From Candidatus Omnitrophota bacterium (lineage in GTDB: Bacteria > Omnitrophota > Gorgyraeia > Gygaellales > Profunditerraquicolaceae): a stretch of DNA of 64,000 nt. Below, piece by piece: positions 17,364-58,824 of this stretch; position 1 is the stretch's first letter; each line of letters opens with the position of its first letter. The translations under genes were made by a program, and so were the position numbers. The stretch is from positions 227,682-291,681 of the forward strand of contig JBAZKL010000003.1 in the NCBI GenBank assembly GCA_041650835.1, given 5' to 3'. The notes under the pieces are model-generated. The model worked only from the letters and a program-made list of their open reading frames with translations. It made no database searches and had not been told where the DNA came from.

Positions 17364-17582
17364 ATAATGCGCGCTCCTTAAGCTTTTGGGCCAGAGAAAC
17401 CGGGCATGACTTACAGCAGGATCGTTTGCATAGCGCTTACTAAATCATATTATTATAACACATCGGAAAGACAAAAATAAGCTTAAACAAGATCGGGATT
17501 ATCGAAGAGCCATTAAGAAACAAAAGAAGATATAACCGGAGAATACATCAAGATGTTAATACTGAACTGTGAGGAATGGATC

Positions 17583-17690
17583 ACACTACCTTTGGTTTCC
17601 GACAGTAAATAAAAAAAGGAATAATCATAAAACGACTATCCCTTTCTTTTTAAAACTATTCAACTAAACACGGCTCTGGCTCGTTCATGA
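17583..17690. repeat. ~105-bp direct repeat copy A (CACACTACC...AACACGGCTCTGGCTCG)
   Basis: About 93% identical to 18088-18192; a shorter third copy of the 5' portion lies at 17806-17832. Confidence 0.8.
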
Positions 17691-17751
17691 GCGCATAACT
17701 TACGCGACCGAAGCAAGCGTAAGTTATATGCGCGAATGAATCCCGAGCTTC
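17683..17751. repeat. hairpin element, divergent member of the ...TTCATGA...TCATTCATCCCGAGCT family
   Basis: Inverted repeat GCGCATAACTTACGC / GCGTAAGTTATATGCGC followed by GAATGAATCCCGAGCTTCCC; shares the ATCCCGAGCT tail with copies at 28671 and 30806. Confidence 0.45.
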
Positions 17752-18087
17752 CCTTTCTTTACTATCAGGAGCGAGGGATCTGCTTCATTACGCTATGGAT
17801 TACACTACCCCTCGTTTCCAACAGTAAAACGAGAGAAACTCGGGGTTAATTCCCGACAATTAAAACGCGGGGAATTAACGGGGTCGACGGGATTTTCCTT
17901 CGACGCACTCGCTTGATTCAATTACAATCACTGTAAGTCGCTCGTTTGCTCAGGATGCATCCTCTTATACAAACAAAAACTCGCTGTTTGTGCCCGAATA
18001 ATGGGCAAACGACGCGAGTTAAATTATCTCAAAACAAAAAAATATATTTGTTCAGTAGTGAGTGAGCCCCGCTTTTGGCGGGGCGCG

Positions 18088-18192
18088 TCACACTACCCCT
18101 CGTTTCCAACATAAATAAAAAAAGGAATAATCATAAAACGACTATCCCTTTCTTTTTAAAACTATTCAACTAAACACGGCTCTGGCTCGTCA
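18088..18192. repeat. ~105-bp direct repeat copy B
   Basis: Near-identical to 17583-17690. Confidence 0.8.
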
Positions 18193-18231
18193 GAGCCTCG
18201 CTCAAGAGCCGTTGTTTCTTCCCTAAATGTT

Positions 18232-18268
18232 GCGAAAAACCATCTCCTTACGGTTGATGGTTTTTCGC
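18232..18268 (-). terminator. stem-loop (13-bp perfect stem GCGAAAAACCATC/GATGGTTTTTCGC) just 3' of tRNA-Asp, nested in a 78-bp palindrome (18209-18286)
   Basis: Perfect inverted repeat; U-rich 3' arm on minus strand; outer arms CCGTTGTTTCTTCC/GGAAGAAACAACGG. Confidence 0.4.
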
Positions 18269-18283
18269 TAGAGGAAGAAACAA

Positions 18284-18359
18284 CGGGGTCGACGGGATTT
18301 GAACCCGCGATCTTCGCCGTGACAGGGCGACGTGTTAAACCGAGCTACACCACGACCCC
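18284..18359 (-). tRNA. tRNA-Asp (anticodon GTC)
   Basis: Cloverleaf: acceptor GGGGTCG/CGACCCC, anticodon arm TCGCC-CTGTCAC-GGCGA, T-loop GGTTCAAATCC; no encoded CCA. Confidence 0.9.
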
Positions 18360-18385: not shown

Positions 18386-18748
18386 TCAAGAGTTAAGATT
18401 ATGTAAAAGCTTACTAAGGATTTTAATAACTTCGATATTTTGCTCTTCTATAACCCTTAATGCATCTTTATCAGCGCCAATACTTTTAGAATCTTTTAAA
18501 ATCTGGAGCCAATTGTCAAGTTCGTAACTTGAACTAAGCGCTATTTCAAAATAGCTTCTTTTTTTATTAATCGAGCTAACTGCATTGCCTTCAGCAATAT
18601 TTGCTCCGACTGAAGTTGCTGAACTGGTACATTGTACCACAATCCTTGAATATTTAAAGTCAATTTTTTCGACCAACTCAATGATCTTAAGAGCATTATC
18701 ATGGGCTTTTTGCCATGCAATCAACTTTCTATAAGTAGGCTCCCCCAT
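18386..18748 (-). CDS. four-helix-bundle protein (TIGR02436-like, 23S rRNA intervening-sequence protein family)
   Basis: 120 aa; YRKLIAWQKAHDNALKIIEL N-terminus typical of family; AT-rich gene flanked by two tRNAs. Confidence 0.6.
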   Translation of the reverse strand: MGEPTYRKLIAWQKAHDNALKIIELVEKIDFKYSRIVVQCTSSATSVGANIAEGNAVSSINKKRSYFEIALSSSYELDNWLQILKDSKSIGADKDALRVIEEQNIEVIKILSKLLHNLNS

Positions 18749-18891: not shown

Positions 18892-18934
18892 TGACTCCGA
18901 GCCTCCCGCTCAAAACTTCCCGGAGGCGAGGAGT
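18892..18934 (-). terminator. imperfect stem-loop downstream of atpK (candidate operon terminator)
   Basis: GACTCCGAGCCTCC ... GGAGGCGAGGAGTC inverted repeat (6+5 bp with internal loop); weak U-tract. Confidence 0.3.
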
Positions 18935-21303: not shown

Positions 21304-21360
21304 AATTCCAACCTTTATGAACGCTTATTTTGATTATCAAAATTTCAAAAGATAAGATAG

Positions 21361-21500
21361 TATTAAAGTCTAAAGATTAAAGTTCAAATAACCAAGGAAA
21401 ATTAAAGGCTTAAGGTTAAATTTTAAAATTACCTACCTGCCGGCAGGCAGGAACCTTAGCCCTTTAACCTTCCTTTGTTATTTATACTTTAGCCTTTAAT
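21361..21500. repeat. ~140-bp AT-rich palindromic intergenic element, copy 1 (centre CCTGCCGGCAGG)
   Basis: Arms ...AACCAAGGAAAATTAAAGGCTTAAGGTTAAATTTTAAAATTACCT / AGGAACCTTAGCCCTTTAACCTTCCTTTGTT... are mutual reverse complements; same element at 28531-28747 and 37871-38004. Confidence 0.8.
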
Positions 21501-27151: not shown

Positions 27152-28128
27152 AATTGCAGTGACCCTCGTAATAATGAAATGTCTAACATGTCATTCACCG
27201 CGAGGTATCGCTTGATACCTTCGATTATTTCCATACTGACGCCGGGATTAATAAAATTCGCCGTGCCTACGGCAACAGCAGTCGCCCCGGCGATCAAAAA
27301 TTCCAAAGCGCTCGCGGTATCCATAATACCGCCCATCCCGATGACCGGGATATTCACCGCGCGCGCGGTCTCCCAGACCATCTTCACCGCGACCGGCCTG
27401 ACGGCTGGGCCGCTTAATCCGGCTACCCCCGCGGCTATCTTCGGCTTACGCGCCATGACATCGATACTCATGCCGGTCAGCGTATTGATCAAAGAAACCG
27501 CGTCAGATCCCGCCGATTCAGCGGCAAGCGCGATATCACTGATACAAGTAACATTGGGGGATAATTTGGTAATCAAAGGTTTTTTGGCCACCTTACGCAC
27601 GGCCCTGACCAGATCATAGGTCGCCTTGGGGTCCTGAGAGATCAATCGCCGTTGCTTCTCTCCTTGCGGCCTGCGACCTGTATCTTGTTTACCCCGAGTT
27701 TGTCGAGGGGCGCCGTGCGACTTTACATTGGGACAAGAAATATTCAACTCAATTGCGTCAACGCCCTTGACCGAATCAACAGCATCTACGATCTTAATAA
27801 ATTCATCCAAGCCGCCTTCAGAAGCAACGCTCAAAATAACCGGGACCCCGGTATTTTTTAAAAACCCGAGTTTATCGCGCAGAAAAACATCTAATCCGGG
27901 ATTTTCCAATCCTATGGAATTAAGCAAACCCGAAGGCGTTTCACAGGTACGAGGCATAGGATTACCGCAGCGGGGCAGGAGCGTCACGGTCTTGGTGACA
28001 AGGGCCCCCAGCTTCTTCAGATCGACAAAATCCCGGAATTCCTCTCCATAGCCGAACGTGCCGGAACAAACCGTGACCGGATTCTTTAAATGCAATTTTC
28101 CTATCCTTACCGCGAGAGACGGATCCAT
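27148..28128 (-). CDS. pyrD: dihydroorotate dehydrogenase catalytic subunit (class 1B-type) with a ~22-aa Arg/Gln-rich in-frame insertion
   Basis: 326 aa; KNPVTVCSGTFGYGEEF, NISCPNVK active-site region followed by atypical insert HGAPRQTRGKQDTGRRPQGEKQRRL before ISQDPKA. Confidence 0.85.
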   Translation of the reverse strand: MDPSLAVRIGKLHLKNPVTVCSGTFGYGEEFRDFVDLKKLGALVTKTVTLLPRCGNPMPRTCETPSGLLNSIGLENPGLDVFLRDKLGFLKNTGVPVILSVASEGGLDEFIKIVDAVDSVKGVDAIELNISCPNVKSHGAPRQTRGKQDTGRRPQGEKQRRLISQDPKATYDLVRAVRKVAKKPLITKLSPNVTCISDIALAAESAGSDAVSLINTLTGMSIDVMARKPKIAAGVAGLSGPAVRPVAVKMVWETARAVNIPVIGMGGIMDTASALEFLIAGATAVAVGTANFINPGVSMEIIEGIKRYLAVNDMLDISLLRGSLQL

Positions 28129-28144
28129 GCGTTACTGATGCCCC

Positions 28145-28504
28145 CTATTTACCTATGATAAAATTAATGGCGATAAAAAGCAAAAAAATTCCGAATATGC
28201 GTTTTAATAAAGGATCCGGCACCTGCTGCACCACGCTTGCTCCCAGGAATCCTCCGATGAAAAAACCGATACAAATAAAACCCGCCATCCCCAATTTCAC
28301 GTTCCCGGCGTAATAATAACGCAATGCCGCTAAAAGCCCTATGGGCGGAATGAGTATCGCCAAAGTCGTACCCTGCGCCTGGTGCTGCGTTAACCCGAAG
28401 AAATAAACCAATGCGGGTATCAAAATGATCCCGCCGCCGATGCCGAACATCCCTCCCAAAACTCCGGCGGTTAATCCTAAGAGGATGTAGAGGAACGAAT
28501 TCAT
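28145..28504 (-). CDS. TauE/SafE (DUF81) family membrane protein, half-length (4-TM) form
   Basis: 119 aa; GGMFGIGGGIILIPAL motif; about half the usual ~250 aa. Confidence 0.5.
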   Translation of the reverse strand: MNSFLYILLGLTAGVLGGMFGIGGGIILIPALVYFFGLTQHQAQGTTLAILIPPIGLLAALRYYYAGNVKLGMAGFICIGFFIGGFLGASVVQQVPDPLLKRIFGIFLLFIAINFIIGK

Positions 28505-28530
28505 AAAAACCCCCTTACTTTAAAAAAGCT

Positions 28531-28747
28531 TAAAGGCTATAGTATAAATTTTAAAGTATAAAGTCTAAATAACAAAGGAAGGTTAAAGATTTAAGGTTAA
28601 ATTTTAAAATTACCTGCCTCACCGGCAGACAGGAACCTTTGACCTTGAAATTTCCTTTGTTCTTTGAACTTTGAATGAACCATGCCTCAGGCGCTTATGG
28701 TTCATTCATCCCGAGCTCTGTCGAGGGTTAACCTTTAGACTTTAATC
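28531..28747. repeat. AT-rich palindromic intergenic element, copy 2, carrying a nested hairpin element (28671-28727)
   Basis: Same arms as copy 1 (…GGTTAAATTTTAAAATTACCTGCCTCACCGGCAGACAGGAACC…); right arm interrupted by TTGAATGAACCATGCCTCAGGCGCTTATGGTTCATTCATCCCGAGCTCTGTCGAGGG. Confidence 0.75.
28671..28727. repeat. hairpin element TTGAATGARCC-RTGCCTCWGGCGYTT-ATGGYTCATTCA + TCCCGAGCTCYGTCGAGGG, copy a
   Basis: ~95% identical to 30806-30862; 12-bp stem TGAATGAACCAT/ATGGTTCATTCA. Confidence 0.8.
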
Positions 28748-28749
28748 CA

Positions 28750-29607
28750 TCACCATTTTACAGCGCCTGAATCAAACACCGGGCCGTCTTTACAGACGCG
28801 CTTATATCCATCGGTAGTCTTGACCACGCACCCTAAACAAGCGCCGATACCGCAAGCCATATGCTCCTCTAACGACAGCTGCGCGGGGATATTTTTCTCA
28901 CCTGCAATACGGCTTACTTCTTTTAACATCGGCTGAGGGCCGCAGGCATAGAGAGTCGACGGTCGATGGTCAATGGTCGATAGTACGGTATCAAGCAAAT
29001 CAGTAACGTATCCTTTATGCCCTAGAGAACCGTCGTCAGTAGAGATCTTCACCTCATGCCCTGATTTCTCGAATTCATTTTTGCAAAGAATTTGTTTTCT
29101 TGTTTTACCACCGATCAAAACAATTCCCTTGAAACGTTCGGCCTGCAGCCTGCGGCCGGCGGCTGATAATTGTTCCGCCAGGAAAACAAGCGGGGCCACT
29201 CCCATACCTCCCGCCACTAATATCGGGTACCGGGCATTATCTATCGTGAAACCGTTGCCTAAAGGACCAAGGATATCGCAAGAATCTCCGGGCTTTTTTT
29301 CTGCTAACGCTGCCGTACCCTTGCCGCGGATCTCATACAGAATGGTCACGGTTGTCGGTGATCGGTGATCGGTGATCGATTTTCGGCCAGCAGGGTCACC
29401 GAGTACCGAATGAATTCCGAAGGGCCTGCGTAATAACGGCGAACCGCTCTCGGAAACCTGAACTTCTAAAAATTGACCGGGGACAGCCTTCGCCGCGATC
29501 CGGGCAGATAAAAGGGACATTCTATAATAATCCTGCCCCGCCGGCGCGTTACTTATTACCCGGGCTTTTTCCTGGAACATCTTTTTCTTCATGGTCATTT
29601 CTGGCAT
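28750..29607 (-). CDS. pyrK: dihydroorotate dehydrogenase electron-transfer subunit (FAD/2Fe-2S) carrying two in-frame short-repeat insertions
   Basis: 285 aa; RPFGIHS, C-terminal CGIGACLGCV Fe-S motif; insert SITDHRSPTT encoded by (GGTGATC)x3 at 29355-29380 and STIDHRPSTL encoded by GACCAT-type repeats at 28945-28973. Confidence 0.85.
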   Translation of the reverse strand: MPEMTMKKKMFQEKARVISNAPAGQDYYRMSLLSARIAAKAVPGQFLEVQVSESGSPLLRRPFGIHSVLGDPAGRKSITDHRSPTTVTILYEIRGKGTAALAEKKPGDSCDILGPLGNGFTIDNARYPILVAGGMGVAPLVFLAEQLSAAGRRLQAERFKGIVLIGGKTRKQILCKNEFEKSGHEVKISTDDGSLGHKGYVTDLLDTVLSTIDHRPSTLYACGPQPMLKEVSRIAGEKNIPAQLSLEEHMACGIGACLGCVVKTTDGYKRVCKDGPVFDSGAVKW

Positions 29608-30410
29608 TGGGGGCAGAAATATGTTCCCCTTCCGCCCAGAGCGGTCCTTTTTACTGCTGTTTTACAAACCGGGCAGGGCTTTCCTTCCCGTCCATAAACT
29701 TTATGGTATTGAACATAATCCCCCGCCTCACCCGAAAGCTGCACATACTGGTCGATCGAAGACCCCTTATGTTGTATAGCCTCCTTCAGGGTATCGATGA
29801 TCTCCTTAAATAACAATTCTTTTTCTTTGCCGGTAAGGCTATTAGCCGGCCGCGCGGGATTGATCCCGGCCCTGAATAATGCCTCAGCCGCGTAAAGATT
29901 GCCGACACCCGAAAGAAATCCCTGATCCATTAATAAAGGCTTTATCCTGGTTTTCTTGCCGCCGAGCATTACCTTAAATCTATCGCTGTCGATATCGAAA
30001 GGCTCCGGCCCCAACCCTTGAATGAATTTCAGGGATTTCCAATCATCAATTAACCGTAACTCGCCGAAGAGGCGGCGGTCATTAAAATCAAGCAGTTTCC
30101 CGTTAGACAATTTAAAACTGACGCGGCTTTGCGCAGCGTCCCCGGGATAAACCAGTTGTCCGGTCATCTTTAAATGCACGGCGAGCGATTTGCCGCAAGA
30201 CAATTCCAGGATCAAAAGCTTCCCCTTACGCAGGATGTTTTTTATAACGCAGTTCTTTATTTCTTTGACAAAAACATCCCTGCTCGGCTCACGGATGACC
30301 CGGGGATTATTAATAATGACATCCGCGATCTTCTTCCCCAGGACCGCTTTTTCCAATTCACGCTTTATAGTTTCAACTTCAGGCAGTTCCGGCATGAGCT
30401 TACCCCTCAA
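29595..30410 (-). CDS. mutM: formamidopyrimidine-DNA glycosylase
   Basis: 271 aa; N-terminal MPELPEVE (catalytic Pro2/Glu3), C-terminal zinc finger CPVC...CPQC. Confidence 0.9.
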   Translation of the reverse strand: MRGKLMPELPEVETIKRELEKAVLGKKIADVIINNPRVIREPSRDVFVKEIKNCVIKNILRKGKLLILELSCGKSLAVHLKMTGQLVYPGDAAQSRVSFKLSNGKLLDFNDRRLFGELRLIDDWKSLKFIQGLGPEPFDIDSDRFKVMLGGKKTRIKPLLMDQGFLSGVGNLYAAEALFRAGINPARPANSLTGKEKELLFKEIIDTLKEAIQHKGSSIDQYVQLSGEAGDYVQYHKVYGREGKPCPVCKTAVKRTALGGRGTYFCPQCQK

Positions 30411-30796
30411 ATTACCTTGACCCAGATCTCCCGGTTACGAGGCCCGTCACTTTCACAAAAATATATCCCCTGCCAGGTCCCGAGCATAAGCCGGTTGTTT
30501 TCAACGATGATTGTCAACGAAGCGCCGAATAAAGAAGATTTAATGTGGCTGTCGGAATTGCCTTCTTGATGGGCATACCCGGCATTTTCCGGAATAAGCT
30601 TATTAAGCGTTTTAAGAATATCCGCCCGCACTGACGGATCCGCATTCTCATTAATAGTCAAACCCGCCGTTGTGTGCGGACAAAAAACAACACAGAGCCC
30701 GTCGCTTACCCTGCCGCGTTCGATGATACCGCCGACCGTCTCCGTAATATCAAGTAATTCAACGCGGTTATTTGTTTTTATCCTTATCTTTTCCAC
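30407..30796 (-). CDS. yjbQ: YjbQ/UPF0047 family protein (secondary thiamine-phosphate synthase enzyme)
   Basis: 129 aa; TTAGLTINENADPSVRADI motif. Confidence 0.8.
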   Translation of the reverse strand: MEKIRIKTNNRVELLDITETVGGIIERGRVSDGLCVVFCPHTTAGLTINENADPSVRADILKTLNKLIPENAGYAHQEGNSDSHIKSSLFGASLTIIVENNRLMLGTWQGIYFCESDGPRNREIWVKVI

Positions 30797-30805
30797 TTTT
30801 TTACC

Positions 30806-30862
30806 TTGAATGAGCCGTGCCTCTGGCGTTTATGGCTCATTCATCCCGAGCTCCGTCGAGGG
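30806..30862. repeat. hairpin element TTGAATGAGCCGTGCCTCTGGCGTTTATGGCTCATTCATCCCGAGCTCCGTCGAGGG, copy b
   Basis: See 28671-28727. Confidence 0.8.
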
Positions 30863-30949
30863 ATATCTCCTATCTGACATGCGACCTGAAACCTGCAGAC
30901 TGATCCTCCGATCTCCGGACACCCGATAGTCCCGGATTTCCGGTTCCCC

Positions 30950-30983
30950 GGACCAACCTTGACCATAGACCATCGACCATGGA
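30950..30983. repeat. tandem NGACCAT heptamer repeats immediately 3' of carB
   Basis: GGACCAACCTTGACCATAGACCATCGACCATGGAC. Confidence 0.6.
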
Positions 30984-32642
30984 CTACTTGCGTCTTGCGT
31001 CGAGTGACTTGCGGCTTACGGCTTTTCTACCCTGAGCTTGCCGAAAGGTGGCTATCCCCTGATATTCCTGGATCGACTTAACATCCAGATCTTTTTTAAC
31101 CAGGACCTCGATCGCGTTGACAGTCGCCTGCGCCCCGGAAATCGTAGTAGTATAAGCGATATTGTAGGTAATGACACAGGAGCGGATCTTAACTTCATCC
31201 TGACGGGGCATCCTGCCCGAAGGGGTATTGATCACCATTTGGATCTTGCCGTCTTTCATCAGGTCAAGCACATTCGGCCTGCCTTCGGCGATCTTCGGCA
31301 GGATATTCACCGCGATATCGTTGCGTTTGAGCACTGCCGCTGTCCCGGAAGTCGAATATATATTAAACTTCAGGTCCTGCAGTTTTTTCGCGATAGAAAC
31401 TATCGAACGCTTATCTTTATCCCTGACGGAAATAAAAACATTTCCGCTGCGGGGGAGCTTTTGCCCCGCGGCGAGCTGGCTCTTAACAAACGCCCTGCCG
31501 AAATCAACGTCGATCCCCATGACCTCTCCGGTTGATTTCATTTCCGGGCCCAAAATAACATCTACTCCCGGGAAGCGGTTAAACGGGAAGACGGATTCTT
31601 TTACCGCGACATGTTGCGGAACGGGCTCACGGGTAAAGCCTAAATCCTTCAATTTCTGCCCCAGCATGACCTTGGTTGCCAGCTTTGCCAGCGGCACACC
31701 AATCACCTTAGAAACAAACGGGACAGTCCGTGAAGCGCGAGGATTGACTTCTAAGACATAAACTTTATCGTCTTTGATAGCGTATTGCACATTCATAAGC
31801 CCTAAGACACGCAGCTCCCGGGCCATCTTGCAGGTAGCTTCCCTGACCTTATCCAGCAGCTCTTTGGACAGGGTATATGTCGGAAGAGTCATCGCGGAAT
31901 CCCCCGAATGGATCCCGGCTTCTTCAATATGCTCCATGATCCCTCCGATAACAAAGTCCTCTGCGTCACCGATCAAATCCACATCGACCTCGATCGCATC
32001 TTCCAGGAATTTATCTATTAACACGGGGTGGTCGCCGGAAACACGGGCAGCCTCAACGATAAACTTTTCCAGCATACTTTCTTCATAAACGATCTCCATT
32101 GCCCGCCCGCCCAGGACATAGGAAGGCCTGACCAGGACCGGGAATCCGATCTTCCGCGCCACGGAAAGCGCTTCTTCATAATTAAACGCCGTACCGTTCT
32201 CCGGCTGTAAAAGATCCAGCTTTTCAAGCATCTGCTTAAATCTTTTTCTGTCTTCTGCTATGTCAATGGCGTCGGCACTGGTCCCGAGGATATTGACCCC
32301 TGCCTTACGCAGCGGTAGCGCTAAATTAAGAGGCGTCTGTCCGCCGAACTGAACGATCACCCCCATCGGTTTTTCCGCTTCGAGGATAGTCATAATATCT
32401 TCAAAGGTAAGCGGCTCAAAATAAAGGCGGTCTGAAGTATCGTAATCGGTCGATACGGTTTCGGGATTACAATTAACCATGATGCTATCGACACCCTCTT
32501 CCCGCAGCGCGTAAGCGGCATGGCAGCAGCAATAATCAAATTCGATCCCCTGGCCGATACGATTCGGCCCGCCGCCTAAGATCACAACCTTCTTTTTGGG
32601 GGTATCGTTTAATCCTTTATTATTTTTATATTGATCCTGCAC
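30984..32642 (-). CDS. carB: carbamoyl-phosphate synthase large subunit, C-terminal half only (split CarB: second ATP-grasp + MGS-like domain)
   Basis: 552 aa beginning [32 protein letters not shown]...[23 protein letters not shown], which aligns to residues ~550 onward of canonical 1070-aa CarB; no N-terminal half is adjacent. Confidence 0.85.
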
Positions 32643-32775: not shown

Positions 32776-32867
32776 ATTATTTAACTTATATCCGCCTCGT
32801 GGTGAGCTTAGTCGAACCACAGGCGCATTAATTTAGTTGACCTTATTTACCCGATAAAAATCCATAT

Positions 32868-34109
32868 TTAAAACAAACTTAACTGCTGATCATGGCTTTC
32901 CTGATTCGAATCTTGCTCGCCGAAAATCGAGATAATGCCATACTCTCCGTCATAACCTGCCTTGATATTTACTTTTCCTTCACGCACCCGTAACACCCCT
33001 TCGGCAATGCGTTTAGGCAGGCCTCTTTGCAGGTCTTCCCCGGAAGCTCTCAACAATATATCGAATTCCGTCCCGAATTTTGCCACCAGGCTCATATATT
33101 CACGCTCGACAGAAACAGCGCCTTTAGCTACCCCTTTTGCCTCCGCGATGATCTCATCGAACGGGATCATGCGCTTAAAGGGAACGCTTGTTTCCGGCAC
33201 AATCCCTTCCGGCCGGTCCGCGAGCTGCGCGACGCGATTCATTACCCCGACCGTCACCGGCTTGCCGCATTTCGGGCACTTGCCGTTATTCTTTTTAGTC
33301 TCTTGCGGCGACAAACGGCTTTCGCACAGGCGATGCCCGTCATAATGATACTTGCCTTCTTCCGGGAAAAATTCTATCGTGTATAAAAACCTTTTATTAT
33401 CTTTAGTCCTCAAGACATCGCGGATCGTTCTATAATCCAGTTCGCAGTTAAAAACATTTGCCTCACGGCCTATTCTTTGAGGAGAATGTGAATCGCTGTT
33501 GGATACCAGGCTGAAGCGGTCTAAAGCGCTCAACCTCCAATTCATCGCCGGGTCACTCGACAATCCCGTCTCCAGCGCGAATATTTTCGGCGTCTGGGCC
33601 TCAAAACAATCCTCTATCCGGTCGAATCCCGACATAGAGCCGAATACTGAAAACCAGGGAGTCCAGATATGCCCGGGAATAACCATGCAATTTTCATCGA
33701 TATCAAAAACAATGCGCGCCAATTCAGCCGCATCCAATCCCAGGATCGGACGGCCGTCGGATGCCAGGTTCCCGCAGCGGGAAAGCACCTCATTGATCTT
33801 ATCGGTTGTTTTAAACGAAGGGCTCAGCACTATATTATGGACCCGATAAGTCCGGCCGTTCTTGGAATAGATACTGCTTATCTCCGATGATAAAATAAAA
33901 TAGATACCGTTATATTTAAAAAGCCCGTTTCCCAGGTCTTCAAGCTTATTCTTGAGCTCCTCCAGCCACAAGTGATAGGTAAAATCACCTGTCCCCATCA
34001 ACGTAATACCCTTAAGCTTGGCCCATTGCGCGATATGCTCAACATCCATATTGCGGCTGGTGGCCCGGCTGTATTTAGAGTGAATATGAAAATCAGCGAT
34101 AAACTCCAT
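32868..34109 (-). CDS. endonuclease Q-like PHP-domain nuclease with C-terminal zinc ribbon
   Basis: 413 aa; ADFHIHSKYSRATS, GTGD, GHIWTPW, SNSDSHSP, CPKCG motifs match archaeal/bacterial EndoQ signature blocks (recalled from memory, not aligned). Confidence 0.75.
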   Translation of the reverse strand: MEFIADFHIHSKYSRATSRNMDVEHIAQWAKLKGITLMGTGDFTYHLWLEELKNKLEDLGNGLFKYNGIYFILSSEISSIYSKNGRTYRVHNIVLSPSFKTTDKINEVLSRCGNLASDGRPILGLDAAELARIVFDIDENCMVIPGHIWTPWFSVFGSMSGFDRIEDCFEAQTPKIFALETGLSSDPAMNWRLSALDRFSLVSNSDSHSPQRIGREANVFNCELDYRTIRDVLRTKDNKRFLYTIEFFPEEGKYHYDGHRLCESRLSPQETKKNNGKCPKCGKPVTVGVMNRVAQLADRPEGIVPETSVPFKRMIPFDEIIAEAKGVAKGAVSVEREYMSLVAKFGTEFDILLRASGEDLQRGLPKRIAEGVLRVREGKVNIKAGYDGEYGIISIFGEQDSNQESHDQQLSLF

Positions 34110-34196
34110 AATCGTTATTATCGTTAGGTTCGTTAGTGCCGTTAGTTTCGTTCAACGGATTAAACGAATTTAACGGCACTAACGATATTAACGAAA
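34110..34196. repeat. tandem TAACGA(N2) octamer repeats forming the entire 87-bp spacer between Mut7-C stop and endoQ start; internally palindromic
   Basis: Minus-strand reading ...AACGAAACTAACGGCACTAACGAACCTAACGATAATAACGATT-ATG; related arrays precede pyrR (37448-37490) and rsmI (47755-47820). Confidence 0.7.
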
Positions 34197-36907: not shown

Positions 36908-37490
<583 letters not shown>

Positions 37491-37870
37491 ATCCCTCGCG
37501 CACACGCTTGCACGCTTCGGGATATTTCGGCCATACAACTTACGTTCGCTTACGCTCCGTGCTGCTCCGCTTCCCTCGCGTTAACGCTTGAAAATTTCTG
37601 CGAAATTTTCTGCGCACGCTTCGGGATTAATTCGCAGACGGCCTTCGGCCTACACTTTACGTTCGCTTACGCTCCGTAAAGTGTCTGCTCATTAAAAAAA
37701 AACCCAACGGCTTATTATGCGGTTGGGATATGATTTTTTAAGGTCGTGAAGCATTTTTCTCTACCTTGCCGGCTTCTCATGAGCCAGCTTAAAGGCCTCT
37801 TTGTATTTAAATAAATATACCACCTCCGGGGGCGTTTGTCAAGGTAAATGACAAGGATGAGGATGACGGA

Positions 37871-38004
37871 AAAGTTTAAAGGATAAAGCTTAAAGAACAA
37901 AGGAAAATCAAAGATTAAAGGTTAAATTTTAAAATTACCTGCCGGCAGATAGGAAGTTTAAGAATTAAACCTTAGACCTTTAACCTTCCCTTGTTATTTA
38001 AACT
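37871..38004. repeat. AT-rich palindromic intergenic element, copy 3 (centre CCTGCCGGCAG)
   Basis: ...AAGATTAAAGGTTAAATTTTAAAATTACCTGCCGGCAGATAGGAAGTTTAAGAATTAAACCTTAGACCTTTAACCTTCCCTTGTT... Confidence 0.8.
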
Positions 38005-38116
38005 TTAGCCTTTATCATTACCCCTGTTGCTAAATAATAAAAAGAAGGGGTGCTCAAGAGACGTCCTATGGGGGCTGATAAACCAAAGGGCGGGAACACC
38101 CCTCCTGAACTGCTTA

Positions 38117-41100
38117 TTATTCTATTATCAACGGCTCCTTAGCCGTAAAAGCGATCCTCGCAAGAGCAACCTGCAGGTCGCCCGCCGGCTTATCCGATTC
38201 CAACAAAGCCAGGAATTCCCTGAAAGCCGCTTCTGTAGGCTTAAGCTGATCCTCTTCTAACCGCAAGATATCCGCGATACAGGAAAGTACTTTATCTACC
38301 TGCGGATTAATATCGCCTTTAACGCAGCAAGCCTGCAAATATTCCTTGATCCTGTCGCTGGCAGGAATGATCCCCGCCTGGATCATGCCCTGTATCTGCT
38401 GCCATTCTTCATCGAGATCAATATTTTCCAGGCGGTTCAAAGGCGGCATAACGCTCATTCCGGGAGTATTCATCGGCTGCGTGACAATAGGGAGTGAGCG
38501 CATATCAATACCTCCCTTTTTAATCGGGCTTGAAGATCGCGGCTGTGCCGCACTTTCAGAAGCCGCTACGGCAGTATCGAGTTGCGCCGCTATCGGGCCG
38601 AAAGACCCGTCATTTGCATTGACGATAATAGATGGCGGCTCATTATCCGGCTTTACGTTTATTCTTCCGATGAGCATATACGGTGCTGACAACTTTAAAT
38701 TAGAGAAATCCCCCCATTGATTACTTAAAAATTCAAAAACATTCGGGAATATTTGATCATTTTCTAACGCCCCGCTGTCCCGTAATTGGGATGTCAATTG
38801 ATTGCAAGCTTTTGCTGTCATTGAACCAACCATGGAATAAAAAATATTCCATTTAGCGGCTACTTGAACTTTATCCTCGGCCTCATCCACTTCACGCGGA
38901 TTATCAACATATATGCCTATATCAATATCGCTGAATTCCGAATCATTGCTCCCTTTAATAGCTTTATCTTTAAGCCTGCCTCCGGTCATATAGATCCTTA
39001 TTTCTCCGGGGCGTTGAACACCTATGCTTATAAGATACTTCTGCGCTTCTTGCGCGATCAACTGCCCGGCCCTCAATAAATGATCGCCGCTAAAAACTGT
39101 AACAAAGCTGCGGGAGGAGTTCCTGACTACCGGATCGGAGGAATCCATCTGCTTCCGGGTGAACTCGAGCATATCCTGTATCCTGGTCTTCACCGCCGCC
39201 TCTTCCTCGGGAGTTACCCCTTCAAGAAATTCAGCATCTCCCGTATTTGCCATCGGGCTGCTGCTATGAACGCTATCGGTACGGAACATGGTAAACATAG
39301 TCCGCTTCGAGGCGTCGACATCCCAATCATCGACAATAAGCTGTATGACTTTAAGCCCGGGGACAAAGAATTTCCGGCTATCCACTGTATTAGCGATCAG
39401 GGCGATCCCGACATGCGACAAATGCCCCTCTATGCCGGACAAAAGGCGCTTATAATCGGTGTCGCCTATTTCATGAGCTCCGTCAAACTTGACCTGAGCA
39501 TCATAGACCGTATTAGGAGAATTAAAATAGACGAAATCATATTCACCGGAGAGCATGTCGAATTCCCTGCCGCGCTCGACTTTATGCACGAAAACTTCCG
39601 AATTCCTGCTCCCGGGAAAAAGCAGGTCAAGGTTAAACACCGTATTATCCACCGCTTCTTGAAGTATATCGATAGTGTCCAGATGGATCTTTAAATTATT
39701 GGATCTTGCCCAGGCATACGCCGTTAATACATCGACCCCGGTCCCTGAACCGATAACTAACACCCGGATATCGTCTCTGCCCGCAGCCCGTAAGTGCCGG
39801 GCGACAGCAGCCATCGCCCGGGGGCTTTGGATGAACCTGGAAGAATGTAAAGAAAGCCCGTAATCATTGACCGGAGAATATACCGCTTTATCGCGCGCGA
39901 TCACGCCTTTACCGGTCAGGGTCATTAAAAGGCGGTAGGCCTCAAGGTCATTTACTCCTCCGACGACCTGATAGCCGTTTTCATCTATTATTTTTTCCAA
40001 AGCAAGGATCTCCTGCTTTACCTGCCCCACCGGCCGGCGAAGGATCCTGCTCACATAGCCTGAGGCGATCGGCGAGCCGGCGGAACGGGTAGAAAAACGC
40101 TTTGCCCTCCTGAGCCATTCGGAAGGCTTCTTTTGATCATTCCCGTCGAGAACTTCCACAATTGCGGAATCTTTTGAATGCACCAGCAGGATATCACCCT
40201 GGCTGCCAAGCGCCTGCAGAAAGAGGTCCCCTTGCGCTGCTTTTTGCAATTGCTCTACGCCCAAATGTATCCCCGGAACACCATTTTCCGAGATAAGGAG
40301 CGATCTTTTTCCTTGCGGATCCCAAGCTTTGAGCTTATCCACTGCCCAGGCAAAATCATCCATGGAATTGGTGTCGACGACATACCCCAGATTGCCCTGG
40401 GGAGCGGCTACCACAAAACCATAAGTAGCGACGGGGTGGCTTTTATGATTACGAAACACGATGGTGATGCCCAATCCTTTATCAACAAACTCTATCTCAT
40501 CAAAAGCGTTTTTCTCGAAAGCGTCTTCAACCGGCTCATTCGCCAATAAATCCCGCGCCCCTTGCCGGGACAAACTTTGAGCCTCCTCAAGAGGAACGCT
40601 CTCCCAGGCCTCTGCGCCAAGCAGGTAAGCCGCGATGACCTCGCTTAATTCATCTCTTACTTCCCTGGTCATAATCAAGTCGAACGCATTGATCTCTTTA
40701 TTGGCATTTCGCACGATAAAACCGATATCATTACCTCTCCCGTTCTTTATCGCTTCCTTTTTTGCTTCAGCATATTTCTCAATGATGAACTGCACAAAGC
40801 CGGCATTATGGTCGGCGTGATTATGCGTCAGTATCCAGCGCGCGGGAAGTAAATTCCTTTTTTTGAGATTCGCGTACGCTTCAAGAGAAGGATCAACAAA
40901 AATACTTTCTTTCCCGACATTAATAAGGAAATTGGTCACGTCTTCTTCCGACAAGGCGTCATGAACGCCCATGAACGTGACCGAAACTTTATCCGCGGGC
41001 CGCAGCTGATACTCCTGGAGCTGCTCCCGGGTAAAATCGCCTGTTTTATGGATATGTTCATCGGTTGAAGTATCGCGCTTACGGGAGGCGACAGCGCGGG

Positions 41101-44100
41101 CTTCCGCTATATCCCCGAGCCGCTCTACAAACTTATAATTTTCACCGTCCTTAACGACCTCAACCGCCACATCTATGCCGTCTTTACCTAAGACCGTGAA
41201 TTCACTCCTGTTTTCTAAATTAATAATATTATACGGATTGTCTTTCTCCAGCGCCACCGCGCTCATGAGCGAAGAAACAAAACCGTTACTTTTCTTAATA
41301 GCGACATCCAGGATCATCTGTACCGCTAAAGCTTCCCGCGCGTTATTGACGATAATATAGGTCGGCCTGACAGCCAAATCGCTCACCAGCCGGAACCCTT
41401 GAGCCCTTAACGACGCTTCTTCTTGTGGCATAGGCGCGATCTTCATAGCCTCATAAAACAGGTTACCAAAAACAACAAACTGCAGGTCAGCGCCGTCATA
41501 GCCCTCTCCAAATTGAGGAATAATGATCTGGGGGGTTTCTTGTATTTTGTTGGTAAAAGAGGTTAGGCCGTTTGCGACCAGAAGTTTTGAAACCGTAAGG
41601 CTCTGGCGCGACTCCCCCTCCGCCTTATTTTGCAGCGGCGAAGCGGAAGTTCCCGCTGATAGAGCAGAGCCGGCGGCAAAGGATGGCTGTTGCAATAAAG
41701 CTTCTTGATAATCTTTCAAACTTTGGATATCATCCTTAAGCATTTCTCTATCAGATGTATCTAACGAATCGCCAAACTCGCGGGATATCCTTGCCAACGC
41801 TTTCTCAAGCTTATCAATGACACGTTTAACCTGTTCGGCTTTTAAAAGTTCTCCTTGATACATTGCTTTTGGCGGCCAGCTGTTTTGGTCATATACAAAC
41901 AAAGGCTCAAGATATTCATTTTTTAATTCGCGTAACCTGCTGATCGCGACAATTGCTTTTTCTTTCTGCACAACATCTCGTTCAACGCTTTGTACCGTTT
42001 CAAGCCTCGGGGCGCTTCCGTAAATCGAAGACTTATCTCCCATGCTCAATAAACCAGGATTAAACGCCCATTCGTTATTCAATCCGGACGGATTATCCTT
42101 ACCAAATTCGCTAAAAGAAACAAACCCATCAAATGAAACGCTTAAACTGCCTCTTCCTGCGGGTAAAATCACTAACCCAACCTCGGATGAACTTTCAATT
42201 TCAGGCTCAAACTGGTCCGCAGCTGCGTCAATAATAAACCACTGAGCCCCCACTCTGAATAATCCATACGCATGATAACCCGGCTCTCCCTTATTTTTTC
42301 CCGTATTAAGCAAAACCGCGTTTTCTTTACCAAGGGCTTCCTGCAGCCACTGAATAACATCCCCGTTCCTGATCCAGCAGTCATAGCGCACCGCGCTGCC
42401 GACATCCCCATCTCTCGAATAAGCCTCTAATTTATCTTTTGTTTCTAATTTTTCTTTTACTGCCTTAAGCGCAGCCAATATCTTATCCAACGATAATTGA
42501 TCAATCCCTTTTAAAAGATCTCCCCAGCGCGCCATAAAATTATCCGGGGTAACCTTAACTCCCCGCAAAAAGTTCCCAAATGTTTGCCAATCAAGGGACG
42601 CCTCAGCAGCCTCAAAAGAAGCATTAACCGGCGAACCGGCAGAAACCTGGTTATCAACAGGGGAAGAAGCATTCTTTACGGCAAGATTGGAATAAACCGT
42701 ATCAAACAAACCGCCGGCATTAACAACGCTATCGACATATCCCGCGGGCGCCTTATCTGCCGGCTCGAACATGGCATCAATTGCCGAAGCAAGTTCGCGT
42801 ATGCTTTTTTTCAGTATTTCTCTTTCCTGAGATTGTATGGCATAAAAACCCTCCAATGCCTCAGCGATCGCCGCAGGGTCATCTTCGGCTTTCCCTGAGT
42901 CTTCAAGATAACCCTGGACATATTCTTCTTTTGTATGAGAGGCGTCGTAATCAAAAAATGAATACCCGATATCTTTTTCGGACAGCATTGTATCTCCCGC
43001 GTTATAGGTCTGCAGGAAATGATGGTCCGTAGTTACCGAATCACACACTTTATGGATTATTGCCAGCCCCGCGGCATACCGCGAAACAAAATCATCCAGG
43101 ATTATTTGGGCGGCGGTTTTTGAAGCACCTAGTGGCTGCCGCTGCTTTTCCAATACGGAGCATTTTTCCATAAAAAAGTCCTTAAAGCGCCAAAGCTCGG
43201 CGATCCGCCAGGGAGCGGCAGAGGCATAAACAAACAACCTCATGCGCCAGATATACGCATTCCAATCTCCCGAATAATCACCCGTACGAAAGGAGAGCTC
43301 CGGGAAATCCGAAAGCGGGACCAAAAACACGCCTGACGGCCCCTGCCCTTGGGTTACTTCCCAATACCCGCCCTTCTGCTGCGCCTGCCGTAAACGCAGA
43401 TCGCTGCTTAAATCTTCGTCGTTATTGCCGCTCTTATCTATCGAATCAATGATTATCTGCAGGGGGGAAATATTTAACGCGGGGGAGAAAAATATATCAT
43501 CGGCAACGACTTGCGCTTGGCCTTGTTCCCGAGCCGTCAGCCGCACTTTTTCTAAACCTTCCTGAAAGAGCCGGGCCTTCTCTGCCTGACGGATAACCTC
43601 CTCATTCATCACGCTTCCCTCGATCACATTATCGGCGTTTCTCTCGCGTAGCTCAAAGCGCACGCGCCCTTGCGTATTAGCGCCGCCGCCTTTAACGCTC
43701 ACGAATGGTTCACCGTCGCCTTCTTCATAGGGCGTGCTTTCTACGCGCTGCTGGAGGCCTCCCATCTTACTATATACCTGCAATGAAAAACAGAGCCCAT
43801 CGGCATACCCAAGGCCGGGAGGTATTTGATGGAGCCGTTTAAGCGCTTCAAAAAGCTTAGCGTTGCCTTGAATAATAACACTGCCGTCAGGCCCCTTAAA
43901 ATCAGAGATAGGAATGACCACGCCTTTTCGCACGGCGTCCCTGATCGCGGCGGTATTGTAATAATTCTCAACTTTCCCCAGGGTATAGATATTCTCGGGG
44001 ATCACCTCATGCCCGGCAATGATCAATTCTCTATAGGCCTGAGCGGAAACAACAGGGTCTTCGTTAGCGATCCGCGCGATAATTTCATTAAGTTTATCGA

Positions 44101-47754: not shown

Positions 47755-47820
47755 CGTTGTATTCGTTATTATCGTTAGTTTCGTTATTGTCGTTTAATTC
47801 GTTAAACGAAATTAACGATC
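47755..47820. repeat. TAACGA(N2) octamer repeat leader immediately 5' of rsmI start codon
   Basis: Minus-strand: ...TAACGAATTAAACGACAATAACGAAACTAACGATAATAACGAATACAACG-ATG. Confidence 0.7.
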
Positions 47821-49659: not shown

Positions 49660-49795
49660 TGAGCACCTCTTGTGATTTTTTGATTGGACATTCCGCTATT
49701 CCTTCGTAGCCCTACATTGGTAAGATCCCTCGCTTCTTACAGTAAAATGAGGGAAGCTCGGGATTAAATTTTCCCGCTTTCGCGGTCAAATTTAG

Positions 49796-58450: not shown

Positions 58451-58588
58451 ATGAAAAAACATCTTAAAACGCCGTCAAAGATTAAAGGGAAACGCTGTCA
58501 CGGTTTCCGTCAGAAAATGTCTTCCAAGGCAGGCAGGGACGTGCTTTCCCGCCGCCGAAGAAAAGGGAGAAAGAAACTCACGGTATAA
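58451..58588 (+). CDS. rpmH: 50S ribosomal protein L34
   Basis: 45-aa [48 protein letters not shown] (below ORF-track size cutoff). Confidence 0.9.
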
Positions 58589-58804: not shown

Positions 58805-58824
58805 AATTTTTCGGGAGAAACTTC

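What the first reader, a model, noticed from the sequence alone, without database searches (positions are those of the whole stretch)
28671..28727. Second dispersed hairpin element (TGAATGARCC...GGYTCATTCA + TCCCGAGCTCYGTCGAGGG) at 28671, 30806 and (divergent) 17683; one copy nested inside the larger palindromic element
Seen: 28671-28727 and 30806-30862 are ~95% identical over 57 bp, with a 12-bp stem and a conserved 3' tail ATCCCGAGCTC(Y)GTCGAGGG. 17683-17751 has a different hairpin but the same ATCCCGAGCT tail. In copy a the element sits inside the right arm of the 140-bp palindromic element (finding above), so one element inserted into another. A related CCCCGAGTTTGTCGAGGGG lies in-frame inside pyrD (27692-27710).
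Basis: seen in the sequence. Interest (0 to 1): 0.55.

Follow-up and report, generated by a model that had tools for sequence, protein, structure and literature searches.

The report
REP-like two-hairpin repeat element
The 57-base element is a real, dispersed two-hairpin repeat in an uncultured Omnitrophota genome, and its conserved "tail" belongs to a short palindromic repeat family (CGTC/TGTC-tagged REP type, here with a tandem G·A mismatch) that occurs in many bacterial phyla and in phage contigs and whose function and means of spreading are still unknown.

Summary
28672-28727 and 30807-30862 are two copies of one element. They are 51/57 identical (89.5%, not about 95%), and all six differences preserve the structure. 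The element is two abutting hairpins: a lineage-specific 12+3-bp hairpin (H) and a 22-nt mini-hairpin (T), AT-CCC-GA-GC-loop-GUC-GA-GGG-AT.

It is not a local duplication. A sister Omnitrophota species carries H+T at three other loci next to unrelated genes, always in the right arm of the TAAAG palindrome. The orthologous carB|yjbQ and pyrK|pyrD junctions of two relatives lack it.

T is not lineage-specific. The 20-mer hits more than 116 genome stretches (about 17 expected) in roughly 15 phyla, and 14 viral contigs. Its flanks, (T/C)GTC before and AT-closed stem after, match the CGTC-tagged REP superfamily of Di Nocera et al. 2013. The three base pairs next to AT covary around an invariant tandem G·A.

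The "third copy" shares only this architecture; its tail is a 38-nt T variant with four copies in the window. The pyrD motif lies in a 22-25-aa in-frame insertion at a hot spot.

No Rfam family, PyrR site, terminator or nearby transposase explains it. Verdict: a mosaic REP/BIME-like repeat, a new variant of a known kind; function inferred, not shown.

The parts
28672..28708 (+). Module H, copy a: 12-bp stem (28672-28683 / 28697-28708), inner 3-bp GCC/GGC helix, 4-nt bulge
   Evidence: (MFE -23.5 kcal/mol for the 65-nt H+T stretch, z = -3.8)
28708..28729 (+). Module T, copy a: AT-CCC-GA-GC-UCU-GUC-GA-GGG-(UU). REP-type mini-hairpin with a tandem G·A; the closing A-U/U-A is degenerate here
30807..30843 (+). 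Module H, copy b (one compensatory A-T to G-C pair and one G·T relative to copy a)
30843..30864 (+). Module T, copy b: ATCCC-GA-GC-UCC-GUC-GA-GGGAU, complete 5-bp basal stem
28526..28750 (.). Host TAAAG-periodic palindromic element that carries copy a in its right arm. Its centre (28613-28633, - strand) is a terminator-like hairpin followed by a T-run
   Evidence: (D2-D4)
17684..17740 (+). Module H' of the 'third copy': long hairpin TTCAT-GA-GCGCATA...GCGC-GA-ATGAA, itself of the tandem-G·A type; unrelated in sequence to H
17741..17778 (+). Module T' (extended T): TCCC-GA-GCUUC-[loop with UUUACU]-GGAGC-GA-GGGA
49726..49763 (-). T' copy 32 nt downstream of tRNA-Glu, same strand as the tRNA
17808..17845 (-). 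T' copy with covarying stems (CCCC/GGGG, GUUUC/GAAAC)
18895..18933 (+). T' copy with covarying stems (CUCC/GGAG, GCCUCC/GGAGGC)
27646..27720 (-). In-frame insertion in pyrD (residues about 137-161, SHGAPRQTRGKQDTGRRPQGEKQRR) containing the T-like CCCC-GA-GUUUGUC-GA-GGGG on the + strand (27692-27710). Window 27665-27725 is 87% identical over 61 nt to an intergenic stretch in the sister species (L107 2996-3056)
31031..31047 (+). T-like CCCT-GA-GCUUGCC-GA-AAGG inside the 3' end of carB (encodes ...FRQAQG... on the - strand)
32800..32819 (+). T-family hairpin UGGU-GA-GCUUAGUC-GA-ACCA between the gene at 32868-34109 and tRNA-Arg

Best explanation
The 57-bp unit is a mosaic, non-coding palindromic repeat of the REP/BIME kind.

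It joins two hairpins with no linker. The first is a lineage-specific hairpin (H). The second is a 22-nt mini-hairpin (T). T belongs to, or is a close variant of, the CGTC/TGTC-tagged REP superfamily. Its consensus in other phyla is (T/C)GTC | AT-NNN-GA-GC-GNA-G(U)C-GA-N'N'N'-AT.

Shown:
- The unit is copied to non-orthologous intergenic sites within a small Omnitrophota clade.
- It is absent from the orthologous sites of relatives.
- It travels together with the TAAAG palindrome.
- Related modules are inserted in frame in pyrD and at the carB 3' end.

Inferred:
- It spreads as selfish or near-neutral DNA through a DNA-level copying process. The enzyme is unknown; no dedicated transposase is known for CGTC-type REPs.
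- What selection preserves is the ability of one strand to fold. The invariant GA...GA on the same strand, next to covarying pairs, fits folding of the GA-bearing strand as RNA or single-stranded DNA. Duplex recognition by a symmetric dimer would instead give inverted half-sites.
- Any host effect is the usual REP effect: stem-loops inside operons (carB|yjbQ, pyrK|tauE') that alter mRNA 3'-end stability, processing or read-through.

In this window the GA strand is antisense to the flanking genes. The mRNA would therefore carry H, which folds on either strand, plus the complement of T.
For: Real repeat with structure-preserving differences.

Not a local duplication:
- H+T lies at three other loci in the sister MAG or its metagenome (L050=L126, L107=L125, L127), next to DoxX, radical-SAM/HypC and epimerase genes.
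- The orthologous junctions in L124 and L122 lack both copies.

The tail is pan-bacterial:
They span Fibrobacterota, Bacteroidota, many CPR lineages, Omnitrophota, Verrucomicrobiota, Planctomycetota, Acidobacteriota, Nitrospirota, Eremiobacterota and others.
- 14 viral contigs match, and 14 of the 16 matches carry a TGTC tag.

REP-type anatomy:
- 44/117 hits are preceded by NGTC (TGTC 29, CGTC 8; 1.6% expected) and 60/117 are followed by AT.
- This matches the published definition of CGTC REPs: tag CGTC/TGTC, stems starting with A-T and T-A, intragenic in-frame copies, no transposase (PMC3733652).

Folding under selection:
- Anchoring only on the 5' half and core, 20/39 non-ascertained sites have a fully complementary N'N'N' (0.6 expected), with 6 different triplets.
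- A GA/GA core has paired flanks in 13% of sites, against 1-5% for the 15 other dinucleotides and 2% for shifted controls.
- The four T' copies in the window show compensatory changes in both stems.

No gene association: flanking genes of 70 intergenic hits are unrelated housekeeping genes.
Against: - Copy number of H+T is low as far as seen: 2 in 64 kb here and 3 loci in the sister species. That is weak for an actively mobile element.
- No target-site duplication and no sharp ends were found.
- No transposase was seen in the 64-kb window (Pfam of called genes).
- The window copies lack the (C/T)GTC tag, because H abuts T.
- Strictly, T fails several published CGTC-REP criteria: the stem is interrupted, and loop and tail differ.
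- Orientation relative to genes is inconsistent between lineages: antisense in all 4-5 informative Omnitrophota loci, sense in the Uhrbacteria locus L005, and 38 versus 20 overall. A single RNA-level role is therefore doubtful.
- There is no bias relative to local GC skew (51 versus 47), which speaks against lagging-strand-targeted single-strand transposition.
- Function is entirely inferred; there are no expression data.
Confidence: 0.62

Rival explanations
1. Pyrimidine-operon regulatory RNA: a PyrR-binding attenuator or another cis-regulator. Both copies lie inside the pyr gene cluster, and a PyrR-like gene is nearby.
For: Copies a and b sit between carB|yjbQ and pyrK|tauE'-pyrD. A Pribosyltran/UPRTase (PyrR-like) gene heads the cluster.
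Against: - No match to the PyrR binding site or any other Rfam family on either strand at E<=10.
- The same element lies next to DoxX, hydrogenase-maturation-type radical-SAM and epimerase genes in the sister species.
- It is absent from the orthologous pyr junctions of two relatives that keep the same gene order.
- The tail occurs next to unrelated genes in many phyla.
Confidence: 0.03
2. Intrinsic (factor-independent) transcription terminator or attenuator inside the operon.
For: - Stable hairpins (-21 to -25 kcal/mol on both strands) sit in intercistronic spacers.
- In other phyla T often lies 7-50 nt after a co-oriented stop codon or after tRNAs.
Against: - No U-tract follows H or T on either strand, and the consensus scan does not call them.
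- The only terminator-like site in the region is the centre of the host palindrome (28613-28633, - strand).
- A terminator needs no conserved sequence across phyla.
Confidence: 0.1
3. Non-autonomous substrate of a single-strand HUH/Y1 transposase (a REP/REPIN-RAYT system): the hairpin plus its conserved flank is what the enzyme recognises and cleaves.
For: - The architecture of conserved unpaired tag plus imperfect hairpin parallels GTAG REPs.
- Strand-specific GA...GA conservation fits single-strand recognition.
- Inverted pairs of T occur, for example in L059 and L030.
Against: - The published survey found no transposase flanked by CGTC REPs (PMC3733652).
- Three RAYT genes fetched from Acidobacteria/PVC-type genomes are flanked by GTAG-CGGCGGTC REPs, not by T.
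- Only one IS200-like gene was found in about 1 Mb of T-containing loci, and it has its own unrelated end hairpins.
- No strand bias against GC skew.
- No Y1 gene in the window.
Confidence: 0.15
4. Site for a DNA-level host or phage process, as known for some REP-type repeats: a recombination or integration target (Neisseria dRS3 is a CGTC-1 REP used by phage integration) or a gyrase/nucleoid-protein site.
For: - T-family hairpins cluster around tRNA genes. In the window the tRNA-Asp region carries an 18-nt duplicate of the tRNA 3' end.
- L012 shows a tRNA 3'-end duplication bracketing a T copy.
- T is present in viral contigs.
Against: - No integrase or prophage is adjacent in the window.
- Most copies are between ordinary genes.
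- The non-palindromic GA...GA arrangement is not what a symmetric duplex-binding recombinase site looks like.
Confidence: 0.07
5. Chance similarity or a one-off local duplication of an intergenic segment.
For: Only two full copies in the window, 2.1 kb apart.
Against: - 0 of 100 shuffles give even one match.
- Copies exist in another species at other loci.
- The flanks of a and b are unrelated beyond about 9 nt.
Confidence: 0.01

Closest known systems
CGTC-tagged REP superfamily (Di Nocera, De Gregorio & Rocco 2013, PMC3733652; includes Neisseria dRS3 and Rickettsia RPE-4/RPE-6)
   Same: - Short stem-loop repeats with an unpaired CGTC/TGTC tag.
- Stems open with A-T then T-A.
- Present in several phyla, mostly intergenic, with in-frame intragenic copies.
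- No associated transposase.
- In other phyla T carries exactly this tag and AT start.
   Different: - T's stem is interrupted by an invariant tandem G·A (5 bp + GA/GA + 2 bp), where published stems are 8-9 uninterrupted pairs.
- T has a GNA or UCY triloop plus a bulged U, and in T' a loop of about 16 nt.
- The tail is CTC/CTT rather than CCA.
- Distribution extends to CPR, Omnitrophota, Fibrobacterota and phage contigs.
- In this window the tag is replaced by the abutting H hairpin.
E. coli-type REP/BIME and REPIN-RAYT systems (GTAG-tagged REPs)
   Same: - Mosaic combinations of short imperfect palindromes in intercistronic and 3' regions.
- Conserved unpaired tetranucleotide next to a hairpin.
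- Proposed roles in mRNA stability and termination.
   Different: - No GTAG tag.
- No RAYT gene found.
- The RAYTs examined here are flanked by a different REP, GTAGCGGCGGTCTRTGACCGCC.
Rickettsia palindromic elements (RPE) and other repeats inserted in frame in proteins
   Same: Palindromic repeat modules are inserted in frame in housekeeping genes (pyrD active-site loop, carB C-terminus, pyrK) without breaking the ORF. The same module is also found intergenic.
   Different: Different sequence, different phylum (free-living or epibiotic Omnitrophota), and shorter modules. The pyrD site is a recurrent hot spot holding unrelated inserts in different lineages.
Modular repeats such as pneumococcal BOX (boxA-B-C) and Neisseria Correia/MITE elements
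   Same: Built from separable modules that occur in different combinations (H+T, H'+T', T alone, palindrome+H+T). Low to moderate copy number, inside operons.
   Different: No terminal inverted repeats with a target-site duplication, no parent IS, and much shorter modules.

Membership tests
CGTC-tagged REP superfamily (PMC3733652) | Unpaired terminal tag CGTC (variants TGTC, CCTC) next to the stem | tested here: inconclusive
   In other phyla 44/117 T hits are preceded by NGTC (TGTC 29, CGTC 8), and 14/16 viral matches carry TGTC. In the window copies the four bases before AT are ATTC (a, b), TGAA (c) and TTTA (49764), so only a and b keep the TC.
CGTC-tagged REP superfamily (PMC3733652) | Stem almost invariably begins with complementary A-T and T-A pairs | tested here: met
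   ATCCC...GGGAT in copy b, in T' at 17740 and in T' at 49764; 60/117 genome hits are followed by AT. Copy a is degenerate (GGGTT).
CGTC-tagged REP superfamily (PMC3733652) | Uninterrupted stem of 8-9 bp, loop of 4-5 nt | tested here: not met
   The stem is 5 bp + tandem G·A + 2 bp. The loop is 3 nt plus a bulged U, or about 16 nt in T'. The published survey discarded repeats with more than one mismatch.
CGTC-tagged REP superfamily (PMC3733652) | 3-nt unpaired tail, consensus CCA | tested here: not met
   The tail after AT is mostly CTC or CTT, with CCC in 7.
CGTC-tagged REP superfamily (PMC3733652) | Dispersed, mostly intergenic, some in-frame intragenic copies, no flanking transposase | tested here: met
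   70/117 hits are intergenic; in-frame copies occur in pyrD and carB; flanking genes are unrelated; no transposase in the window.
GTAG REP / REPIN-RAYT | GTAG tag and a cognate RAYT gene flanked by the repeat | tested here: not met
   There is no GTAG next to H or T. No Y1_Tnp gene is in the window. The fetched RAYTs are flanked by GTAGCGGCGGTC-type REPs, not by T. The rest of this genome could not be searched.
MITE | Terminal inverted repeats, target-site duplication, related autonomous IS | tested here: not met
   No TSD is definable at a or b. The ends are not sharp: similarity decays over about 9 nt on the left and stops at GGG on the right. No IS was found.
PyrR binding site (Rfam RF00515) or any Rfam family | Covariance-model match | tested here: not met
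   No hit at the element at E<=10 on either strand. At gathering threshold the window shows only four tRNAs.
Intrinsic terminator | GC-rich hairpin followed by a U-tract | tested here: not met
   No T-run follows H or T on either strand, and the consensus scan does not call them.
In-frame palindromic insertions (RPE-like behaviour) | Repeat present inside an intact ORF, absent from homologues, with intergenic copies elsewhere | tested here: met
   The PyrD insertion of 22-25 aa is absent from 303-306-aa homologues. Window 27665-27725 is 87% identical over 61 nt to an intergenic stretch in L107 (2996-3056).

The most novel reading that the evidence does not exclude
The T hairpin, (T/C)GTC-AU-NNN-GA-GC-GNA-G(U)C-GA-N'N'N'-AU, may be a single, structure-constrained single-strand motif shared by at least 15 bacterial phyla and their phages. 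It has invariant nucleotides around a tandem sheared G·A. Such conservation would imply a conserved, still unidentified trans-acting partner: either a mobilising enzyme for the 'orphan' CGTC-type REPs, or a universal nucleic-acid-binding or processing protein. On this reading it is more than parasitic or structural filler, and Omnitrophota reuse it as a building block that even enters protein-coding loops.
Probability: 0.25. Interest if true: 0.75.

Novelty: new variant of a known kind. Interest (0 to 1): 0.45.

Why it matters
For annotation:
- The element and its relatives explain odd features of this Omnitrophota locus. These include spacers inside the pyr cluster, a 22-25-aa insertion in the PyrD active-site loop, and a repeat-built CarB tail.
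- They also warn that many "hypothetical" peptides and length variants in such genomes are repeat-derived.

For biology:
- The tail links an uncultured-phylum repeat to the CGTC-tagged REP superfamily, whose mobilisation and function have been open since 2013.
- The tandem-G·A variant has a fixed sequence, covarying pairs, a wide phyletic spread and a presence in phage contigs. These make it a convenient handle for finding the missing partner, by phylogenetic profiling or pull-down.
- The same handle could settle whether these repeats act as RNA or as single-stranded DNA.

The 57-mer itself is an ordinary member of this world.

Tried and rejected
- Rfam, at gathering threshold on the whole window and at E<=10 on 28500-31100: nothing at the element. 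Rfam on 19 loci from other phyla showed only incidental overlaps: T inside a cobalamin riboswitch, and tRNAs upstream.
- Gene association: Pfam on 108 ORFs flanking T in other genomes gave no enriched family.
- RAYT hypothesis:
  - tblastn with IS200, E. coli RayT and two consensus Y1 sequences written from memory against about 1 Mb of loci gave one IS200-like gene with unrelated ends.
  - Two large protein searches with those remembered consensus sequences returned genuine PF01797 proteins. The three contexts fetched carry GTAG REPs, and the second search returned only Firmicutes.
- Full-text search for the motif and for peptides it encodes (VRQAHH, PELVEG and others): only primers and unrelated hits. 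One possibly relevant 2026 preprint on mining non-coding elements could not be opened.
- Target-site duplication: none definable.
- Strand bias against local GC skew: none.
- A loose regex census in the window (4-bp stem) is only marginally above shuffles (9 versus 4.9 ± 2.4). The case for the family therefore rests on the anchored and covariation tests and on exact-pattern counts.
- Covariation statistics on the five H+T copies are not significant.
- tRNA-derived origin of T (similarity of ATCCCG...TCGA to the tRNA-Asp 3' half) was considered and dropped as too short to argue.

Full report
**Observation**

A degenerate 56-mer matches only 28672-28727 and 30807-30862, both on the + strand, and none of 100 dinucleotide shuffles gives a match. 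They are 51/57 identical, which is 89.5% rather than about 95%.

The six differences are:
- one compensatory pair (A-T to G-C);
- one A-T to G·T change;
- four changes in loops or the bulge.

All 20 modelled pairs are intact in the five known copies. With five sequences this is not statistically significant.

Each copy folds into two directly abutting hairpins on either strand, with energies of -21 to -25 kcal/mol and z-scores of -2 to -3.8:
- H has a 12-bp stem, a 3-bp inner helix and a 4-nt bulge.
- T reads AT-CCC-GA-GC-UCY-GUC-GA-GGG-AT.

**Setting**

The window is part of a 370-kb contig of a Candidatus Omnitrophota MAG (ENA ERZ27247363). The identification rests on an exact protein look-up and on the source names of PyrD homologues. 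All genes from 1 to about 57 kb are on the - strand. The origin region (dnaA, with yidC divergent) and the GC-skew switch lie at 57-58 kb.

Copy b lies between carB and yjbQ. Copy a lies between pyrK and a 119-aa tauE' ORF that precedes pyrD. Both copies have the GA-bearing strand of T antisense to the genes.

**Not a local duplication**

A 20-mer scan of one genome per species recovered the full H+T unit on two contigs of a sister MAG, GCA_964588175.1 (L050 and L107). A junction 20-mer scan of JGI metagenomes recovered these two loci again plus a third, L127. Their neighbours are DoxX, a pyridine-nucleotide oxidoreductase, radical-SAM/HypC genes and an epimerase. None is a pyr gene.

The orthologous pyr clusters were then compared:
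- In the sister MAG (L124, PyrD 83% identical) and in a further relative (L122, 82%), carB abuts yjbQ. The window therefore has a lineage-specific mosaic of about 190 nt that ends in T+H.
- In L122 pyrK abuts pyrD.
- In L124 the tauE' ORF is present, but the spacer holds different repeat modules.

Copies a and b are thus gains at non-orthologous sites, or losses elsewhere. This is the behaviour of dispersed repeat DNA.

**Nesting**

In copy a and in all three sister-species loci, H+T sits at the same junctions in the right arm of the TAAAG-periodic palindrome. Two palindromes in the window lack it. The left arm has no counterpart, so the arrangement is an asymmetric insertion. The composite has then been copied as a unit.

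Copy b keeps about 9 nt of palindrome-arm sequence to its left. No target-site duplication can be defined in this 10-nt-periodic context.

**The tail is a pan-bacterial module**

About 17 are expected for 596 Gb and 18 fixed bases (my arithmetic). The hits come from Fibrobacterota, Bacteroidota, at least ten CPR lineages, Omnitrophota, Verrucomicrobiota, Planctomycetota, Acidobacteriota, Nitrospirota, Eremiobacterota, Gemmatimonadota and others. A few are evident coding coincidences in Alphaproteobacteria.

The flanks are conserved too:
- 44/117 hits are preceded by NGTC (TGTC 29, CGTC 8);
- 60/117 are followed by AT.

Fourteen IMG/VR viral contigs carry it, with TGTC before 14 of the 16 matches and a GNA loop in nearly all of them.

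Flanking genes are unrelated housekeeping genes. Seventy of the 117 hits are intergenic, and the upstream gene is co-oriented in 38 against 20. The hairpin is often 7-50 nt after a stop codon or after a tRNA. In one case it sits in a peripheral stem of a cobalamin riboswitch.

**Structure under selection**

Three tests support selection on folding:
- Anchoring only on the 5' half and the core (CAT-NNN-GAG[CT]...G(N)C-GA), and excluding the ascertained pattern, gives 39 sites. Twenty have a fully complementary triplet downstream (0.6 expected), with six different triplets, and 15 of the 20 are followed by AT.
- Cores with GA/GA have paired flanks in 13% of cases. The figure is 1-5% for each of the other 15 dinucleotides and 2% for shifted controls.
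- The window holds four copies of an extended variant, T' (38 nt: 17741-17778 +, 17808-17845 -, 18895-18933 +, 49726-49763 -). They show compensatory changes in both helices around the invariant GA/GA and share a loop core UUUACU.

GA...GA on the same strand is not a duplex palindrome. It is what a tandem sheared G·A in a single-stranded hairpin looks like; that 5'-C-GA-G-3' contexts form such pairs in both RNA and DNA is established knowledge. The conserved property is therefore folding of the GA strand, as RNA or as ssDNA.

**The 'third copy'**

17684-17740 is a different long hairpin, itself of the tandem-G·A type (TTCAT-GA-GCGC...GCGC-GA-ATGAA). It is followed by T' rather than T. It shares the architecture and the first ten and last six bases of the tail, but it is not a divergent copy of the 57-mer.

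**pyrD**

CCCCGAGTTTGTCGAGGGG lies in a 22-25-aa in-frame insertion just after the conserved ISCPNVK. Pfam splits the domain there. Omnitrophota PyrD homologues carry 0-35 unrelated, basic, low-complexity residues at exactly this point. Window 27665-27725, which covers most of the insertion, is 87% identical over 61 nt to an intergenic stretch in the sister species.

A T-like hairpin also forms part of the carB 3' end, whose tail differs between the three relatives. This is RPE-like behaviour.

**Comparison with what is known**

Di Nocera et al. 2013 (PMC3733652) sorted REPs into GTAG- and CGTC-tagged superfamilies. CGTC REPs have these features:
- an unpaired CGTC/TGTC tag;
- stems that start with A-T then T-A;
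- 8-9-bp stems, 4-5-nt loops and a CCA tail;
- presence in five phyla;
- frequent positions downstream of ORFs, and in-frame intragenic copies;
- membership of Neisseria dRS3 and Rickettsia RPE-4/6;
- no associated transposase.

T shares the tag, the AT start, the genomic behaviour and the lack of a transposase. It fails the uninterrupted stem, the loop and the tail. That survey discarded repeats with more than one mismatch, so such variants would have been missed. I therefore file T as a variant of that kind, not as a member of one of its four families.

**Rivals**

- PyrR or another riboswitch-type regulator is excluded.
- Intrinsic terminator: there is no U-tract. The only terminator-like site nearby is the centre of the host palindrome.
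- RAYT substrate:
  - No Y1 gene is in the window.
  - One IS200-like gene in 1 Mb of loci has unrelated ends.
  - Three RAYT genes fetched from other phyla are flanked by GTAGCGGCGGTC REPs instead.
  - T shows no strand bias against GC skew.
  - This lowers the hypothesis but does not exclude it, because whole genomes could not be searched.

**Conclusion**

This is a real, low-copy, mosaic REP/BIME-like repeat. Its H module is specific to a small Omnitrophota clade. Its T module is a tandem-G·A variant of the widespread CGTC/TGTC-tagged REP type.

Mobility is supported by the comparison of orthologous loci. The copying mechanism and any function (mRNA 3'-end or processing effects, or ssDNA-level recognition) are inferred only.

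Noticed in passing
window 56568-60357: Replication-origin region: dnaA (-) and yidC (+) are divergent, with dnaN, gyrB and gyrA downstream of dnaA. The GC skew changes sign at about 57 kb. All genes left of it are co-oriented with replication.
   Followed up: partly
window 17580-18300: An 18-nt copy of the tRNA-Asp 3' end (ACGGGGTCGACGGGATTT) lies at 17878-17895, as well as in the gene at 18283-18300. The region is a mosaic with a 79-nt perfect duplicate (17606-17684 = 18112-18190) and half-copies of the T' hairpin. It looks like the remnant of repeated insertion or integration at the tRNA.
   Followed up: partly
window 27646-27720 (pyrD); alignment A3: The PyrD loop right after the catalytic ISCPN motif is a hot spot in Omnitrophota. 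Homologues carry 0 to about 35 unrelated basic low-complexity residues at the same point.
   Followed up: partly
window 28958-28985 and 30958-30985: A GACCATCGACC-type short repeat occurs in frame inside pyrK (encoding ...STIDHRPST...) and again just 3' of carB. A second similar stretch in PyrK (ITDHRSPTT) suggests more in-frame repeat insertions.
   Followed up: no
window 28145-28504: A 119-aa ORF matching only the C-terminal half of TauE/SafE is inserted between pyrK and pyrD. It is well conserved in the sister species (L124) and absent in L122, where pyrK abuts pyrD.
   Followed up: partly
window 21359-21500, 28526-28750, 37871-38014: The TAAAG-periodic palindromic elements have a central CCTGCC...GGCAGG hairpin followed by a T-run on the gene-sense strand (for example 28613-28633). 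It looks like an intrinsic terminator, and sigma-70-like hexamers lie just downstream.
   Followed up: partly
window 34100-34181, 37447-37510, 47751-47823: Arrays of a 9-nt periodic unit (..TCGTTA..) lie at three intergenic sites. This is another simple-repeat family of this genome.
   Followed up: no
window 18386-18748: A 23S-rRNA-IVS-type four-helix-bundle protein gene sits alone between tRNA-Val and tRNA-Asp.
   Followed up: no
window 38117-46507: A 2796-aa ORF with no Pfam hit on record.
   Followed up: no
L070 3921-4097; L012, L034, L048: In other phyla the T hairpin sits inside a peripheral stem of a cobalamin riboswitch (L070) and shortly downstream of tRNA genes. In L012 a duplicated tRNA 3' end brackets a roughly 70-nt insert ending in T.
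   Followed up: partly
L135-L148 (IMG/VR contigs): Sixteen T matches in 14 viral contigs; 14 carry the TGTC tag and nearly all a GNA loop. Phages may carry and spread the motif.
   Followed up: partly
L128, L132, L134: REP-associated tyrosine transposase genes from three other uncultured genomes (found with a PVC/Acidobacteria-type consensus query) are flanked on both sides by GTAGCGGCGGTCTRTGACCGCC hairpins. This is a textbook GTAG REP-RAYT arrangement.
   Followed up: yes
L005 (Candidatus Uhrbacteria): Almost every intergenic spacer in this 8-kb stretch holds a tandem-G·A hairpin (ttattGCCT-GA-GCTTGTC-GA-AGGCtgtaa), oriented with the genes. It often lies 35-50 nt upstream of the next start codon.
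   Followed up: partly
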